From Chlamydiales bacterium (GTDB taxonomy: Bacteria; Chlamydiota; Chlamydiia; Chlamydiales; JBDQID01), in contig JBLFWS010000074.1 in assembly GCA_047611865.1 (NCBI GenBank), positions 1 through 14,980 of the forward strand: a stretch of 14,980 nucleotides of DNA, given 5' to 3'. Shown in pieces: positions 3,001 to 9,000 of the stretch. Each line of letters opens with the position of its first letter. The stretch's first letter is position 1. Made by a program: the position numbers.

Positions 3001-6000
3001 AGTGCTTTCCATTTTTTCCTGTCGGTACATGCTTTCGTAAGGGGGTTACTATAAACTTTAACTTCGGAAAAAGCAAGTATACAGCGATTATTCGTTGTGA
3101 ATAAGGGGTAGACGGAAATTTCAATTTTGTTGATAGTCCAGACCTAAATCTAAGTCTACAAATTCAAAATTTAACTTTCTGGTGACTTATGCAAGCATTC
3201 TATCGTGATGTTCCAGCTTTCAAAAAATATATCTCTCCAAAGCTATTACAAGAGTTATTAGAAGATACTGAGCCTGTCCCTGGTGTGGCGGGGTTACAGG
3301 TAAAGCGTGGATTGATGGAGGCGTTTAGCAGAACGGAGACAGCGGAGTCACTGGATTTTATCTGTCGCTTGTATATTAAGGTGCGAAAGGATCTTTCATT
3401 ACTTTTGGAAAAGCGTCGTGTGGACCGCAATTTTATTGACATTACGACAAAAGCATGCGGGATAAGAAACGAAAAAAATGCAACGGATTACCTGAGCGTT
3501 GATTATGAGACTGTGATCGGCAAGAGAAATGAGGATGGTGAATTGGTTGTAGGTCCTTATTCGAACATGTTTTCAGGGGAACATCAGATTGCAGAAATTC
3601 CGGACTGTTTAAAGGGGAAACATGTCACCCTTTTTGGTCCTGCTGACAGTGCAAAGATGTCCATTAATGCGATGAATGCCTGGCATAGAATCCCTAAGAA
3701 TGAGTCTGCTATTATTACAAAATTGGTAAATGATTCAGGGATAATCCCCAAGTGGGGAGCAGATGATGAAGATTCCAAGACACCAGAAAACACCACCTTT
3801 GCATCAGCCTGTAATAATTTGATTGATTGTTTTCATCGAACTATATCCTTTAGAGATGAGAAGAGCTCTCAGGAATATCACTTAGCTAGTGACAAACTTT
3901 CCCTTCCTATCAAAAGACCTCCTGGTTTGGAGTTACCAGACGGTGGGCACATATTTCAAGGTAACCCTTTACCCCTTCATTTGTACGACTTCGCTAACCA
4001 TCTCTTCCATTGCTGGGATAAGCCGGAAGCTTTGAGTTTTTATATACCTAAATTGGAAAATGAAGGCGAAGCCCAGTATGTGAAAAAGCTTGTCTCCAAA
4101 GCTGAAGAGATGATTCAGGAGTTACATCCAGAATATAAGTCTGGGTCAGTACGATTGTTTATCGTGTTTGAAAATCCACGAGCCATATTTCGTATGCGTG
4201 AGATTATTTCAGAACTCTATCCCTACTTTGCTGGAGGCTCCTTGGGGTGGCACGATTACCTGGCATCAACAGCAAGGCTATTCCGTTTTGACAAAAACTA
4301 CCGCATACCTGTGAAAGCAGACCCTAACATTGTTATCGACCATATTAAAGCTTCCCATGTACTTGTAGCCAAGACTGTGGGGGAGCATGGGGGTATTGGC
4401 ATAGGAGGAATGTACGGCGTATTGCCTGAAGGGGGTAATGCGGAGTCAGAGGCTGTCGCGATGATAGGCTTTATCAAAGACGTCGTTACACAAATGAAGA
4501 GGGGCTTAGACGGTTTTTGGGTGGCTCATCCCGATTTTGTACGACCAGGAATTGCTTTGGTAGAGGCGTGGGGTAGGTATGCAGAGGATTCGGAAGATAA
4601 ATCTTTGTTTCAGCTAATTGGAGAGCTAATAGAGGATTCTCAAGATCAGGGTATGCTTGTAGAATTTATCAAAGGCAAGGATGTCATGGGATTGGATGGT
4701 GAGGATCCATTATTTCCAAGAGCTCTATTAGCGGCAAACATACGGGAATCGAATGTTATCCCTAACAATCATCCCGATGAAATACGCTATAATGTTTTTC
4801 AAGCCCTACAGTATATGGTCGATTGGCTATGCGGAAATGGTTGTGTGGCTTTACCCGCGATGATGAAAAACTCTCAGGGGAAAGATGTATTTGTACGGAT
4901 TATGGACGACCTGGCAACGACTGAGCGGTCACGCTGGGAGCTTTGGGCAGAGGTTTATCATAAAAGGTTTTCTCAGAGTGATTTTCTAAAGGTCGCTTAT
5001 GAAGAGATGCATTTTATTCAGAAGGGTAAAGAAAGCGAAATTAAAAAGACCCAGGTTAAATGGAATAAGCTAACGGAAAAATGGTACCCAGTTGCCTTAA
5101 AGGTTCTTATCCAGCTGGTGACAGATCCAAATCCAGTGGAATTTGTGAGCGAACTTTTACTTCCCTTTACTTTTGATAGCATCCGTCAGTCGGATGATCC
5201 ATGGAAGAAAGCTTCTGCAATGGAAGGGCATAAATATTCCCTGGAGGATGATGTTAGAGGGTTTTGTTCTTATTTCCAGCAATGTGGAAGTGTAAAATAT
5301 GCTGAGGGGATGTCTCAACAGGACTACAACACTGTGGAGGACTTACTCTCTATCTCACGCGAAAAGATTCTGGAATTTGATATTGATGAGATCAATGCAG
5401 CGGCGGGCTTTCACGGAACTATAGGAGAATCTCAGGCTACTCTCAATGGGGTGGAATCAGAAGAGCAGGCTCTAGTGCAAGAATCCCATGAGGAGCTTCT
5501 GGAAAAAGGATCTCTCTATCAAAAACAGTTTGGAATGAAGTTCTTGATTGCAGCGAGCGGTAAAAGCAGTGAAATAATACTGAGAGAGCTGGATGGACGT
5601 TTAAAGAATAACTTGGATGAAGAAATTCAAAATGCCAAAGAGGCTCTTGTGGCAATCACAGAAAAGCGCTTAAAAGAACAATGTGGAAACCCAGATAATT
5701 TTAGCTTCTTGTCTACGGGAAAAATCATAGAAGATCTTTTGGGAAAATATGAGGTAGCAGGTGTTAATGTGAGCCTGCTGAGAAAGGGGAGTGAAGGATT
5801 ATGTGAGCTATCAGGGGATTTCTCAGCTGGACTCTCGAATAAGGAAAACATGACAGCTATGAAAGCCGGAACTATTTTACAAATGGCCTCACTCAGCAAA
5901 ACGATTGCAGCGGCATTTGCCATGGAATATTTTAGAAAAAAAGAGATCAGCCTTGATACCCCAGTGAATGACTTACTTTTAGCGTCCGGATCTCCATTTC

Positions 6001-9000
6001 AAATTCAGTCGGCAGTAAATTGTCCGAATGAGTGGGCAGCAGAAGTGAGCTTGAAGCACCTTCTAAATCATTCAGCAATGGGTATGCATTATGTAGATGG
6101 CTATCCCTTGGGTCAGGGCAGTCCCGATGCTTTTGACCTTCTTTTAGGTACTCATGGAACTGAGGCTATTCTTTTACATAAAAAACCTGGAACAGAGTTT
6201 CATTATTCAGGGGGAGGCTTTCTCCTTCTTCAGCATTTGTTAGAAGCGATATTTTCCAAGTCAATAGCAGATATTATGCGTCCGTTTCTTGATGATTTGG
6301 GTATGCAGGATTTTAGTTTTCGTGAGATGGAAAACAAAGAATACGCTTTTGGCTTTAGGGATGATGGGAATCTCGTCGCAGCAGAGGGCCGGCTAGCTTT
6401 TCCAGAACTCGCAGCTGGTGGAGAAGGGACGACGAATGCTATGGCTAAGTTTTTGTCTCACCTCGTGAATGCCTATCATTCCCTTGAGGGTTCTGGTCCG
6501 TTATCTCATGACACCGCGGTTGAAATGCTCTATGCGGGTCGAGACTTTGGCAGTATGGAATTTATGGGGGCAAAGATGGGCCTCGGTGTCTTTTTAGGGG
6601 AAGCGGGACCTAATAGAATAGCTGTGCATCAAGCGGCAAATGATGGATTCAGGGGTTTGTATCTTGTTTGTTATAAGGGCCCCGACGAGGGAAAGGGTTT
6701 TGTAATTGTAAGCAATGGAGACAATAAGGCTACGTTGCTTAATTGTGAGATAGCCAGGAATTTGATGGAAGCTGAGGAATGGAGAGGAACGGATTTTAAA
6801 TCAATAAAGCCCCTGGAAATTACGGGTCTTAAGCAGGAAGAGATAGTCAATATAGGTGTGAAAGAAATGCTCCTTAAACATCTCTCTATTGAATTAGCAG
6901 ATCCGATGCTGGCTTTAGGAGACGTTGATCCTTTTTCTCCTGTAAACCTGGCGTGTAATTCCACAATCAACTTTTGCTCTAATCAAAGATTTGCTCGAGC
7001 AGAAAACTTGTTTTTATCGACGTTACCCGCATTTGATCCAGAGGCTTATGGAAAAGATGGCAAGATTATGGATAGCTGGGAATCTGAACGTCATAATGTA
7101 GAGGATTATGATTTTGTCGAATTTACTCTACAGTCGCCTGCTTCTTTTAATATGCTTCATCTGTCTACCATGTTTCATGATGGGAACCATGCCGAGAGTA
7201 TTCAGCTTGAAGCCTGGGAGGGTGAGCAATGGGTGGACTTGATTGAAAAAATTCCGCTTGAGGGACACTCCAGTCATTGGTTTAGGCTAGAGAAAGCTCA
7301 AGAGGGACTATGGTCTAAACTGAGATTGCGTAACTATCCTGATGGGGGAATATCCAGGATTGGACTCTATCATTTAAAAGATTTAAAACCTTTAGTTCAG
7401 GATCTTGAACTGAAGTCATTCTTGGAAGGGACAGAAAAGAAGCTAATCATTCCCTATTCTTTTTCCATTCCTACTCAAAAAGAAAAAAAAATGACAATGC
7501 CTCATCTGATTGAGGAAGCAGAAGTGGAAAAGAATTGGAAAGGCGTAAAGCTTGGGGACAGGGTCAATGTCGCGAGTGAGTGCATGGGAGGGGAAATTCT
7601 TGAGGTTTCTAACGAACACTATGGTTCTGCGTACAGGATCTTGTCGTCTGAGATAGCTCTCGGAATGGATGACGGTTTTGAAACGAAAAGGAATAGGGAA
7701 GGGAAGTTTGAAGAGATTATTTTTGCGTTAGGAAGGCCAGCAATAATTGAAGAAATAGAGCTGGATTTTACTCATTTCGTAAACAACAACCCCATGAATA
7801 TGGATGTGTCCGGATATCTTGAAGGAGAATGGATGGACTTGCTTCCTAAAACTTTTGTGAAGCCTTACCGGGGTAATAAATTTAGAAGGCATACGGAAAA
7901 ATGTGGGGATCGTGTATCACAAATTAGAGTCCGTATTTATCCCTGTGGAGGTTTTAACAGAATAAAAGTTATGTGCACGGCAGATCAGGAGCTTCTGAAA
8001 ATTGAGCAAAAAATTCAGGGGTCTGTGATGACTCCTGAATGATATGTCCTCTTAGCAATTTGAGCGTTGAAAGTGCGACACAAAAAAGTAATCAACTCTT
8101 TTGTGCCGCACCTACCGAGCTTAAACCAAGCGCTTTGTTTTCCAGCTTCCTTTGCGGAATCTTAAGTAAAAACAAAGGGCATTGATTGCGGCATAGCCGT
8201 TGAGTATGACCCAAACATAACTGGGCGGGCAATCCCCCTGCACTACGAGGAAATAAACGGGAAGAACAGCAAAGGTCCAGGTGGTGACGGTGTTGATGAT
8301 CATCACATATGTGGTCTCGCCAGCAGCCGTAAGTACTCCGGCCGATATCCAGGTTAATCCATCGAGGACAAAGTAGAAAAAAATGCATGCAGCAGTAATT
8401 CTTAACATTGCCGTTAAGTGAATAAGCCGCTCGGGGTTCATATCATCAGATAGAAAAAAACTGATAATGGGATCAGGGTAGAGTAATAAAATCGGGGCCA
8501 CCAAAAGCGCATAAATAAAGAGGAGTCGAACTGCAGACTTCCAGGCTTTTAGGATTAGGGCAGGTTTTCTTGCTCCCAAAAAGTTTGCACTGATGGTGGT
8601 GATTCCTTTCTGTAAACCTTCCATGGCATAAGATATTAGGGCATAAAAACATTGGCCCATAGCTGCAACGGTGATGTGATCTTCACCGACGCCAATCAAC
8701 AGACGAGTAATCAATGCCCAAGCGGAAATTTCTATCATATGGCCCATCGCACTGGGAACTCCAACTTTAAGACAGTTCCAAAATACCTGGATTTTGAAGC
8801 CATACCTTCTTGTTCCATACTGAAGATTGTAGTGCTTATTCAGAAAACTGCTTAAGAGAACTAAGACCTGGATGAACATGGAGATTACAGTGGCAATAGC
8901 TGCTCCTTCACAACCCATAGCTGGAATGATTTCTCTAAAACCGAATACTAAAAGGATATCTAGAATGACGTTTAGGACATTTCCGATAATTGCTGCTTTT

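What a model noticed while it worked through the whole genome (the two positions that open the first line are those of the whole stretch)
3189..8042. Four-enzyme ureide-pathway fusion with a candidate new allantoinase domain
One 1,617-aa protein fuses a malate-synthase-like domain, OHCU decarboxylase, a beta-lactamase-like serine hydrolase and allantoicase. It is inserted in a conserved chlamydial gene block and occurs in no other sampled genome of the order. The genome has HIU hydrolase but no known allantoinase. I therefore propose that the serine-hydrolase domain, placed between the allantoin-making and allantoate-using domains, opens the allantoin ring.
Evidence so far: Domains come from Pfam and NCBIfam. 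621 homologues were found, mostly full-length at 44-48% identity. The names carried are mainly Bdellovibrionota and Oligoflexia, plus Percolomonas. SxxK, YSG and HQ motifs are invariant, and the malate synthase Arg276 position is always Trp. Malate-synthase-like proteins act as ureidoglycolate lyase in animals. Allantoicase occurs in 1 of 151 genomes of the order. The HIUase C28_4 is in an operon with flavin monooxygenase C28_5. There is no uricase, PuuE or AllB above cut-off. Contigs of two runs span the gene and its flanks with no differences.
(Added by a program. Inside this text positions count along the whole contig: contig position 1 is position 1 of the stretch shown here. "Call 12" and the like, gene names such as g00115 and contig names such as C1 are that model's own, and its searches are not shown. 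The text may have been shortened before it was handed on; [...] marks where a part breaks off. The agent that wrote the report below was given it as the finding of a first reader that could run no searches.)

Follow-up and report, generated by a model that had tools for sequence, protein, structure and literature searches.

The report
Ureide-pathway fusion with candidate new allantoinase
One giant gene in an environmental chlamydia joins four steps of uric-acid breakdown, and its beta-lactamase-like part very probably is a third, previously unrecognised kind of allantoinase, shared with hundreds of predatory bacteria and many protists.

Summary
Window 3189-8042 (+) is an intact 1,617-aa ORF with four domains: malate-synthase-like (MSL), OHCU decarboxylase, PF00144 serine hydrolase ("bla-like") and allantoicase. 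It sits in a conserved kdsB-pyrG-ruvX-nadA/zwf-opcA-pgl block. Allantoicase was found in 1 of 401 genomes of the order.

The allantoinase reading gained strong comparative support.
- None of 51 fusion-bearing genomes has AllB or PuuE over cut-off. Their 20 best sub-cut-off AllB hits are dihydropyrimidinases or dihydroorotases.
- All 10 Planctomycetota genomes with a classical allantoicase have AllB directly beside it. None has the bla-like family.
- The bla-like domain always travels with allantoicase: bla-ALC, OHCU-bla-ALC, MSL-OHCU-bla-ALC and bla-UGL(PF04115)-ALC.
- The conserved neighbours are HIUase, PuuD urate oxidase and xanthine dehydrogenase.
- SxxK, YSG and HQ motifs are invariant. 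The AlphaFold model (pLDDT 92.9) has a DD-peptidase/class C fold with no close characterised relative.
- Six literature searches found no paper linking allantoinase to this fold.

No enzyme assay exists. MSL as ureidoglycolate lyase versus true malate synthase stays open. Verdict: a real horizontally acquired gene and a probable (about 0.7) new non-homologous allantoinase.

The parts
3189..8042 (+). Whole 1,617-aa four-domain ureide-pathway gene
   Evidence: ORF list and translation; Pfam and NCBIfam. It keeps 394 of 438 columns that are conserved in at least 23 of 24 other fusions.
3189..5258 (+). Malate-synthase-like domain (residues 1-690; Pfam MS_TIM-barrel at 3909-4541, MS_C at 4776-5150). 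Proposed ureidoglycolate lyase.
   Evidence: E 2e-26 to E. coli MSA 3CUZ. R243, E328, D356, W444 and D574 are kept; the Arg276 position is W354. Stand-alone 680-aa homologues are 54-59% identical.
5295..5675 (+). OHCU decarboxylase domain (residues 703-829)
   Evidence: PF09349, 66.5 bits against cut-off 24. H742, G746, E747, E759, Q760 and R827 are at least 90% conserved.
5691..6923 (+). bla-like serine-hydrolase domain (residues 835-1245; Pfam 846-1180 = 5724-6728). Proposed allantoinase.
   Evidence: PF00144, 92.1 bits. AlphaFold2 pLDDT 92.9, pTM 0.92. Foldseek finds the DD-peptidase / class C / LACTB / Pab87 fold at 16-22% identity. Complementary distribution with AllB.
5889..5900 (+). Codons for S901-L-S-K904 (SxxK: nucleophile Ser and general-base Lys)
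   Evidence: Invariant in A1 and A2.
6204..6212 (+). Codons for Y1006-S-G (second motif of the fold)
   Evidence: Invariant.
6627..6632 (+). Codons for H1147-Q1148 (at the place of the KTG/HTG third motif)
   Evidence: Invariant. The equivalence to KTG/HTG is recalled, not computed.
6960..7979 (+). Two allantoicase repeats (6960-7370 and 7587-7979)
   Evidence: PF03561.
1465..3030 (-). zwf (G6PD), the left edge of the inserted interval; divergent from the fusion gene with a 158-nt spacer
   Evidence: Pfam. 55-68% identical in relatives of the order; synteny.
8121..10295 (-). MatE transporter (8121-9500) and EVE-domain gene (9825-10295). They lie with the fusion between zwf and nadA and were not found at that place in the eight relatives' loci.
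   Evidence: Pfam; tblastn of window proteins against 8 relatives' loci.

Best explanation
The gene encodes a cytoplasmic multi-enzyme that carries the ureide pathway from OHCU to glyoxylate. The proposed steps are these. The OHCU decarboxylase domain makes (S)-allantoin. The bla-like serine-hydrolase domain opens the hydantoin ring through an acyl-enzyme on Ser901 (SxxK/YSG/HQ triad), which gives allantoate. This would be a third allantoinase type, not homologous to AllB or PuuE. The allantoicase domain releases urea and ureidoglycolate. The malate-synthase-like domain most likely cleaves ureidoglycolate to glyoxylate and urea. The family is native to Bdellovibrionota, Planctomycetota and protists. 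An environmental chlamydia acquired it horizontally at a variable junction of a conserved gene block, long enough ago for its composition to match the genome. In this chlamydia the input is probably urate taken from the host and processed by a flavin monooxygenase-HIUase operon on another contig. Shown here: domains, motifs, fold, distribution and synteny. Inferred: every catalytic assignment of the bla-like and MSL domains, and the source of urate.
For: Missing-gene logic: AllB over cut-off in 0 of 50 and PuuE in 0 of 50 further fusion-bearing genomes, and in neither case in the window's genome. The 20 best sub-cut-off AllB matches are 8 dihydropyrimidinases and 12 dihydroorotases, each over its own cut-off. 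In-place displacement: of 251 Planctomycetota genomes, 11 have allantoicase. One is a fusion. The other 10 have a classical allantoicase, with AllB (507-591 bits) directly adjacent in 10 of 10 and no bla-like family member in 0 of 10. Positive controls score 289-329 bits. Rosetta stone: 16 of 16 odd-length family members carry allantoicase (8 OHCU-bla-ALC, 4 bla-ALC, 3 MSL-OHCU-bla-ALC, 1 bla-PF04115 UGL-ALC). Operon: across 80 genome loci, HIUase is present in 63 (50 directly upstream on the same strand), PuuD in 54 and XdhABC in 23-24. No other conserved neighbour was found. The same holds in 80 metagenome loci. Catalytic motifs are invariant across bacteria and eukaryotes. The fold is confident. 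Canonical UGL (PF04115) is found in 0 of 51 fusion genomes, and vertebrate MSL is an experimentally shown UGL (PMC10120013, passages and section 11 read). Horizontal transfer: allantoicase in 1 of 401 genomes of the order. Flanks are syntenic in 7 of 8 relatives' loci, with gaps of 18 nt to 5.1 kb at this junction. GC3 is 0.392 against 0.388 +/- 0.047 for 943 long ORFs. A 79%-identical homologue, P0002, exists.
Against: No assay, and no structure with ligand. All genome evidence is correlative, and the genomes are related, so the counts overstate independence. Completeness of G001-G050 and of the controls is not reported by the tool, and most are MAGs. The window's genome (and 8 of the 20 best AllB-like hits elsewhere) has a dihydropyrimidinase, a hydantoin-opening enzyme that could moonlight on allantoin. 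The closest solved structures are peptidases, esterases and amidases, none acting on hydantoins. MSL keeps the malate synthase catalytic Asp, Arg, both Mg ligands and W365, so a true malate synthase is not excluded. This genome has no uricase, PuuD, XDH or urease, so both the pathway's input and its benefit here are guesses. No run on record as RNA was listed.
Confidence: 0.7

Rival explanations
1. The bla-like domain has another role (amidase on a different ureide, esterase, racemase-like, scaffold or regulator). Allantoin is then opened by an unrecognised enzyme, or by the dihydropyrimidinase.
For: A dihydropyrimidinase is present in the window's genome and in at least 8 fusion-bearing genomes. 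No solved relative of the domain acts on a hydantoin. Function is inferred only.
Against: Most fusion-bearing genomes show only a dihydroorotase-level hit. Twelve of the 20 best AllB-like hits are dihydroorotases, and at least seven genomes have a best AllB score of 113-122 bits. AllB sits exactly where the bla-like domain sits when that domain is absent (10 of 10). Every other pathway step already has its own domain or neighbour. The catalytic triad is invariant, which argues against a pure scaffold.
Confidence: 0.17
2. The MSL domain is a true malate synthase that condenses the glyoxylate end product with acetyl-CoA. Allantoicase itself would cleave ureidoglycolate. This is compatible with bla = allantoinase.
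For: R166, E250, D278, W365 and D447 equivalents are all kept. The genome has no other malate synthase and no urease, so carbon capture as malate would give the chlamydia a benefit. Reference 42 of PMC10120013 is titled for ureidoglycolate as 'a substrate of allantoicase'.
Against: MSA model scores 133.8 bits against cut-off 594.5. Arg276 is invariantly Trp and Trp277 is His, in parallel to the Arg276 loss in the characterised UGL. P0391 puts a canonical UGL (PF04115) where MSL stands in other architectures. PF04115 is found in 0 of 51 fusion genomes. The split cluster L114 carries class-V aminotransferases, which fits free glyoxylate being the product.
Confidence: 0.25
3. The gene does not belong to the chlamydial genome and reflects a binning or assembly chimera.
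For: The genome is a 272-contig MAG with 2.5% contamination. All three full holders may be the source samples.
Against: The gene is physically flanked on both sides by genes 49-73% identical to, and syntenic with, relatives of the order. Separate per-run contigs of X1 (14,361 nt) and X2 (14,096 nt) bridge both junctions with 0 differences, and X3 covers the stretch in two pieces. GC3 matches the genome.
Confidence: 0.03
4. In the chlamydia the gene is a decaying relic without function.
For: Upstream enzymes (XDH, uricase, PuuD) and urease were not found. The window protein differs at 44 conserved columns.
Against: The 4,854-nt frame is intact. 394 of 438 highly conserved columns and all catalytic motifs are kept. 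Most deviations are shared with the 79%-identical P0002, so they are lineage-specific substitutions under continued constraint. An HIUase-monooxygenase operon is present.
Confidence: 0.07

Closest known systems
Allantoinase AllB/PucH/DAL1 (cyclic amidohydrolase, EC 3.5.2.5; NCBIfam TIGR03178)
   Same: Proposed same reaction (allantoin to allantoate). Same genomic position directly upstream of allantoicase in ureide clusters.
   Different: Unrelated fold and chemistry: a binuclear-metal TIM-barrel amidohydrolase versus a metal-free Ser-nucleophile PF00144 fold. The two were never found together in the 61 genomes compared.
PuuE/HpxB allantoinase (polysaccharide-deacetylase fold; TIGR03212)
   Same: A precedent. 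PuuE was itself found as a non-homologous allantoinase by missing-gene logic (recalled: Ramazzina et al. 2008; only later papers that mention puuE were seen in the listing).
   Different: Different fold. No match over cut-off in any of the 61 genomes.
PF00144 serine hydrolases: R61 DD-peptidase, class C beta-lactamases, LACTB, Pab87, family VIII esterases, D-amino-acid amidase
   Same: Fold and the SxxK / Y-x-(N/G) / third-motif triad. These enzymes also open cyclic or linear amides through an acyl-serine.
   Different: Only 16-22% identity. Class C model scores 23.7 bits against cut-off 415. The domain is cytoplasmic and embedded in a metabolic fusion. It has family-specific invariant residues (H961, H967-Y968-V969, H1147-Q1148-x-x-N1151, R1155).
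Eukaryotic malate-synthase-like ureidoglycolate lyase (DrMSL/UGL; PMC10120013)
   Same: Malate synthase homologue tied to allantoicase and purine catabolism. Loss of Arg276.
   Different: Arg276 is Trp here (Ile in DrMSL). Trp365 is kept here (Met in DrMSL). The paper states that the UGL group holds only eukaryotic sequences, whereas this family is mainly bacterial, about 690 aa, and often fused.
Known two-domain ureide fusions (allantoicase::OHCU decarboxylase in Planctomycetota; PuuE::OHCU decarboxylase, implied by the name of TIGR03212 'uraD_N-term-dom')
   Same: Fusion of consecutive or near-consecutive ureide steps.
   Different: Four domains here, two of them of families not previously assigned to the pathway in bacteria.

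Membership tests
Allantoinase AllB (TIGR03178) | Amidohydrolase-fold protein scoring at least 357.85 bits on the equivalog model | tested here: not met
   The fusion has no amidohydrolase domain. The genome's best match is 249.8 bits and is a dihydropyrimidinase.
Allantoinase PuuE (TIGR03212) | Polysaccharide-deacetylase-fold protein scoring at least 424.6 bits | tested here: not met
   No match at E<=10 in the genome; none in the fusion.
PF00144 beta-lactamase / DD-peptidase fold family | Pfam score over 27 bits; SxxK, Y-x-N-type and KTG-type motifs; two-domain alpha/beta plus all-alpha fold | tested here: met
   92.1 bits. S901xxK904, Y1006SG and H1147Q are invariant. Model pLDDT 92.9; all top Foldseek hits belong to this fold.
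Class C beta-lactamase (NF033085) | Equivalog score of at least 415 bits | tested here: not met
   23.7 bits. It should not be called a beta-lactamase or a resistance gene.
Malate synthase A (TIGR01344) | Equivalog score of at least 594.5 bits | tested here: not met
   133.8 bits.
Malate synthase A (TIGR01344) | Catalytic Arg166 and Asp447, and Mg ligands Glu250 and Asp278 (E. coli numbering) | tested here: met
   They align with R243, D574, E328 and D356, all invariant. The roles of these residues are recalled.
Malate synthase A (TIGR01344) | Conserved acetyl-CoA binding site | not tested
   No residue list from a tool and no model coordinates were available.
Eukaryotic UGL group of the MS family (PMC10120013) | Arg276 and Trp365 both substituted | tested here: inconclusive
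   Arg276 is replaced (by W354) but Trp365 is kept (W444).
Eukaryotic UGL group of the MS family (PMC10120013) | 2-aa insertion at the glyoxylate/acetyl-CoA interface; clade membership in the MS/UGL tree | not tested
   The supplement with the alignment could not be read, and no DrMSL sequence was returned by a tool.
OHCU decarboxylase (PF09349) | Pfam score over 24 bits | tested here: met
   66.5 bits. NCBIfam domain equivalogs fall below cut-off (67.4 against 139.4).
Allantoicase (PF03561; TIGR02961) | Two allantoicase repeats | tested here: met
   Two repeats, 163.6 bits against 27. TIGR02961 scores 172.6 against 277.9, below the equivalog cut-off.

The most novel reading that the evidence does not exclude
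The PF00144-fold domain is a third, evolutionarily independent allantoinase that works through a serine acyl-enzyme. It replaces AllB/PuuE in Bdellovibrionota, some Planctomycetota and one chlamydia. As a stand-alone 420-450-aa protein it would also be the allantoinase of many protists and algae (haptophytes, chlorarachniophytes, ichthyosporeans). Alongside it, malate-synthase-superfamily proteins (the MSL domain, and possibly DUF6986) would be the bacterial ureidoglycolate lyases. That would move the origin of animal UGL out of eukaryotes.
Probability: 0.6. Interest if true: 0.85.

Novelty: new variant of a known kind. Interest (0 to 1): 0.8.

Why it matters
Allantoinase is a textbook step of purine nitrogen recycling, and only two enzyme types are known for it. 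A third, serine-based type would close a gap in pathway reconstruction for hundreds of bacterial species and many microbial eukaryotes. It would correct annotations such as 'serine hydrolase', 'beta-lactamase' and 'malate synthase' on these proteins. It would add a new chemistry (hydantoin opening) to the beta-lactamase fold, and could give a metal-free allantoinase for allantoin assays. It also shows an obligate-intracellular lineage acquiring a whole catabolic module in one gene. The bacterial MSL family bears on the published claim that ureidoglycolate lyases of the malate synthase family are eukaryote-only. All of this can be tested with one recombinant protein.

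Tried and rejected
- The ESM Atlas search returned only generic PF00144 clusters.
- Sequence search of the bla-like domain against the PDB gave only weak hits: IS11 at 5.5e-6, then Pab87 and Est-Y29.
- No run on record as RNA was listed.
- The promoter/terminator scan of 2900-8300 gave promoter-like counts near the shuffles (12 against 10.3 +/- 3.0) and 9 terminator-like sites against 4.0 +/- 2.0. 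No site was placed usefully at the gene's ends.
- The supplement of PMC10120013 (alignments, modules) could not be read. It may list other orthogroups that co-evolve with allantoicase, including this one.
- The phylum-level search around the window's genome gave no control set. All sampled genomes belong to one order, and allantoicase was found in 1 of 401.
- The C28 monooxygenase has no informative PDB relative and no homologue in any fetched fusion locus.
- hhalign of MSL against DUF6986 was not significant (probability 2%, E 0.025).
- Rejected: that the hidden allantoinase is a divergent AllB, binning contamination, and a cell-wall or resistance role. The last is rejected on the class C model score and because the domain lies internally, after 834 residues of MSL and OHCU domains.
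- Literature searches that found nothing linking allantoinase to this fold or to these organisms.

Full report
OBSERVATION. Window 3189-8042 (+) is one uninterrupted ORF of 1,617 aa.

Pfam places five domains over their gathering cut-offs:
- MS_TIM-barrel at 241-451
- MS_C at 530-654
- OHCU_decarbox at 703-829
- Beta-lactamase (PF00144) at 846-1180
- two allantoicase repeats

NCBIfam sees the same families, but none reaches an equivalog cut-off. The class C beta-lactamase model scores 23.7 bits against a cut-off of 415.

A search of 5.8 billion proteins gave 621 homologues at E<=0.001. The 120 listed are almost all 1,530-1,670 aa and 44-47% identical over 95-99% of the query. Their names include Bdellovibrio, Bacteriovoracaceae, Halobacteriovorax, Oligoflexus and Planctomycetes, plus one Percolomonas transcriptome protein. 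One unnamed protein, P0002, is 79% identical. A scan of 185,579 species genomes found 460 loci that encode a relative.

THE HOST GENOME AND THE INSERTION. The window is the whole contig C74 of a 3.59-Mb, 272-contig genome (95.5% complete, 2.5% contamination). The tools give no taxon name.

The genome has seven TLC/NTT nucleotide-transporter genes. Its phylum sample consists of a single order of 0.8-3.2-Mb genomes.

The flanks are pgl-opcA-zwf on one side and MatE, EVE, nadA, ruvX, pyrG and kdsB on the other. zwf is 55-68% identical in most relatives of the order.

In 7 of 8 relatives' loci the order kdsB/pyrG-ruvX-(nadA)-zwf-opcA-pgl is kept. The eighth fetched stretch showed only zwf and pgl. 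The gap at the ruvX/nadA-zwf junction ranges from 18 nt to 5.1 kb. The same-family relative has nadA, then 1.3 kb, then zwf, and no fusion. In the window this junction holds 7.3 kb: the fusion, MatE and EVE.

Allantoicase was found in 1 of 401 genomes of the order, and that one is this genome.

Per-run contigs of two ice-metagenome runs bridge both junctions without a difference. A third run covers the stretch in two pieces. All three may be the source samples.

GC3 of the gene is 0.392, against 0.388 +/- 0.047 for the genome's 943 long ORFs. The protein keeps 394 of 438 columns that are nearly invariant in other fusions, and most of its 44 deviations are shared with P0002.

The gene is therefore real, linked to chlamydial core genes, horizontally acquired, not recent, and under constraint.

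WHAT THE FAMILY DOES: CONTEXT. I clustered the ORFs around 80 genome loci. The counts were:
- HIU hydrolase in 63 loci, in 50 of them directly upstream on the same strand
- PuuD-type membrane urate oxidase (PF06181) in 54 loci
- xanthine dehydrogenase subunits in 23-24 loci
- a deaminase in 7 loci

No other neighbour is conserved. Eighty metagenome loci show the same picture.

The cluster therefore encodes xanthine to urate to HIU to OHCU. The fusion adds OHCU decarboxylase and allantoicase. PuuD, HpxO and HpyO as urate oxidases are described in PMC4562309 (passages read).

Two steps lack a classical enzyme: allantoin to allantoate, and ureidoglycolate to glyoxylate. Two domains lack a classical role: bla-like and MSL.

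THE ALLANTOINASE TEST. In 50 further fusion-bearing genomes, AllB (TIGR03178, cut-off 357.85) is over cut-off in 0 of 50; the best score is 284 bits. PuuE (TIGR03212) is over cut-off in 0 of 50; the best score is 34 bits.

I fetched the 20 best sub-cut-off AllB matches. Eight are dihydropyrimidinases (TIGR02033, 528-606 bits) and 12 are dihydroorotases (NF006559, 599-708 bits), each over its own cut-off. Several genomes have nothing above a dihydroorotase scoring about 120 bits.

For a control I sampled 251 Planctomycetota genomes. Eleven have allantoicase. One of these is a fusion. The other ten have a classical allantoicase.
- All ten have AllB at 507-591 bits, directly beside the allantoicase gene.
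- None has PuuE.
- None has a bla-like family member. The best hit is 69.8 bits at 29% identity, whereas three fusion genomes used as positive controls gave 289-329 bits at 43-49% identity.

One such classical cluster reads PuuD | AllB | allantoicase::OHCU decarboxylase | HIUase | DUF6986. AllB and the bla-like domain are thus mutually exclusive and occupy the same place next to allantoicase.

Two caveats apply. The genomes are related, and the tool does not report their completeness.

ROSETTA-STONE EVIDENCE. Shorter proteins that carry the same domain at 41-53% identity over about 93% of it come in three forms:
- bla-allantoicase, 710-785 aa
- OHCU-bla-allantoicase, about 870 aa
- stand-alone proteins of 390-460 aa

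The stand-alone forms include named eukaryote proteins from Amorphochlora, Prymnesium parvum and Sphaeroforma arctica, and from MMETSP and EukProt transcriptomes.

An exhaustive search of 1.84 billion representatives found 111 clusters at E<=1e-30. I scanned 16 odd-length members with Pfam:
- 8 are OHCU-bla-ALC
- 4 are bla-ALC
- 3 are MSL-OHCU-bla-ALC
- 1 (P0391) is bla-Ureidogly_lyase(PF04115)-ALC

All 16 carry allantoicase. P0391 matters for two reasons. A canonical ureidoglycolate lyase stands where other architectures add MSL. That leaves allantoinase as the only vacant step for the bla-like domain.

A split cluster (L114) has PuuD, bla-ALC, two class-V aminotransferases, a one-repeat allantoicase and a stand-alone MSL.

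THE DOMAIN ITSELF. S901-x-x-K904, Y1006-S-G, H1147-Q and further residues (H961, H967-Y-V, N1151, R1155) are invariant in 26 fusions and in 46 domain sequences from bacteria and eukaryotes.

The AlphaFold2 model is confident (pLDDT 92.9, pTM 0.92). Foldseek returns only the DD-peptidase / class C beta-lactamase fold, at 16-22% identity: Pab87, LACTB, IS11 esterase, R61, D-amino-acid amidase and ADC enzymes.

The domain begins at residue 835, after the MSL and OHCU domains, so it is not an N-terminally exported enzyme. A cell-wall or resistance role is therefore not credible.

Opening a cyclic amide by an acyl-serine is what this fold does. Allantoin as the substrate is my inference.

In a domain tree, the window and P0002 group (SH-aLRT 99) with bla-ALC proteins. 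The labelled eukaryote stand-alone forms fall on one side of a branch (SH-aLRT 93). In the full-length tree, the window and P0002 sit on a long stem in a clade with Percolomonas and two unnamed proteins. These trees are unrooted, so no donor can be named.

THE MSL DOMAIN. Against E. coli malate synthase A (3CUZ, E 2e-26), six positions can be mapped:
- R166, E250, D278, W365 and D447 align with invariant R243, E328, D356, W444 and D574.
- R276 aligns with invariant W354.
- W277 aligns with H355.

Vertebrate MSL was shown to be a ureidoglycolate lyase with R276I and W365M and no malate synthase activity. The paper states that its UGL group is eukaryote-only (PMC10120013; abstract, passages and section 11 read).

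Stand-alone bacterial MSL proteins of about 680 aa are 54-59% identical to this domain. There are 811 hits, from Bradymonadaceae, Myxococcota and Planctomycetota among others.

Canonical UGL (PF04115) is absent from 51 of 51 fusion genomes. I favour UGL at about 0.55. A true malate synthase that feeds on glyoxylate remains possible at about 0.25-0.3. It would even make sense in this chlamydia, which has no second malate synthase and no urease.

THE PATHWAY IN THIS CHLAMYDIA. HIUase (130 bits, cut-off 87) lies on contig C28. It overlaps by 4 nt a 484-508-aa flavin monooxygenase (Pyr_redox_3 / NAD_binding_9). The pair lies between a group II intron RT fragment and a transposase fragment.

No uricase, PuuD or XDH was found. 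The monooxygenase may therefore be the urate hydroxylase, working on host urate. That is speculation.

The genome's dihydropyrimidinase, which sits beside an aminotransferase, is the one local rival for ring opening.

KNOWN OR NEW. Six full-text searches found no paper linking allantoinase to a serine hydrolase, to the beta-lactamase fold, or to these organisms. The single paper that held allantoinase, allantoicase and beta-lactamase together concerns zebrafish LACTB2 and is unrelated.

Subscription journals are not covered, and the supplement of PMC10120013 could not be read.

The pathway is known. The fused architecture is widespread but uncharacterised. The proposed enzyme type is new.

VERDICT. 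The allantoinase hypothesis is raised from a guess to a well-supported, directly testable prediction (about 0.7). Interest is 0.8.

Noticed in passing
L214 (G548:C27:49000-66000) 10412-11860; also L216 11751-13193 (-) and L217 12556-14004 (-): DUF6986 (PF22484, 574 bits) follows HIUase in classical PuuD-AllB-allantoicase::OHCU-HIUase clusters. It is over cut-off in 9 of 10 classical-allantoicase Planctomycetota genomes, against 5 of 51 fusion genomes. A moderate model (pLDDT 68) hits only the malate synthase / malyl-CoA lyase / citrate-lyase superfamily (3qqw 4e-5, 3cuz 1.2e-4). Sequence-level tests were not significant. It may be a bacterial ureidoglycolate-step enzyme.
   Followed up: partly
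G000:C28:1348-3233 (L090); partial copy at G000:C79:982-1548: HIUase is translationally coupled to a flavin monooxygenase of no assigned function, between a group II intron RT fragment and a DDE transposase fragment. This is a candidate new urate hydroxylase in a genome without uricase, PuuD or XDH. An 86%-identical 189-aa partial copy lies on C79.
   Followed up: partly
G000:C142:5328-8154 (L082 132-2958): A dihydropyrimidinase/D-hydantoinase (TIGR02033, 549.5 bits) lies directly after an omega-aminotransferase-type gene. This may be part of a reductive pyrimidine degradation pathway (my inference), unusual for a chlamydia, and it is a possible moonlighting allantoin hydrolase.
   Followed up: partly
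window 8121-10295: The MatE efflux transporter and an EVE-domain protein lie with the fusion inside the interval that is 18 nt to 5.1 kb long in relatives. Neither was found at that place in the eight relatives' loci.
   Followed up: partly
P0391 (1004 aa): Architecture bla-like - canonical ureidoglycolate lyase (PF04115) - allantoicase. It is a natural variant in which AllA-type UGL replaces the malate-synthase-like domain.
   Followed up: yes
P0268, P0272, P0338 and MMETSP/EukProt proteins: Stand-alone 390-460-aa orthologues of the bla-like domain occur in chlorarachniophyte, haptophyte and ichthyosporean proteomes and in other protist transcriptomes. They form one clade. Whether these eukaryotes lack classical allantoinase could not be tested here.
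   Followed up: partly
P0085 (Percolomonas cosmopolitus transcriptome, 1619 aa): A full four-enzyme fusion is labelled as eukaryotic. It falls in the 5-row clade that also holds the chlamydial pair (SH-aLRT 100). Prey or symbiont contamination versus a true eukaryotic gene is unresolved.
   Followed up: no
L114 (MDTD01141838.1) 382-9866: Split ureide cluster: PuuD, bla-allantoicase (772 aa), class-V aminotransferase, a single-repeat allantoicase ORF, stand-alone MSL (735 aa) and a second class-V aminotransferase. The aminotransferases may convert glyoxylate to glycine.
   Followed up: partly
G000, seven loci (for example C4:32354-33814, C93:3078-5957): Seven TLC/NTT nucleotide-transporter paralogues, two of them in tandem on C93. 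This is a large set, as expected for an environmental chlamydia.
   Followed up: no
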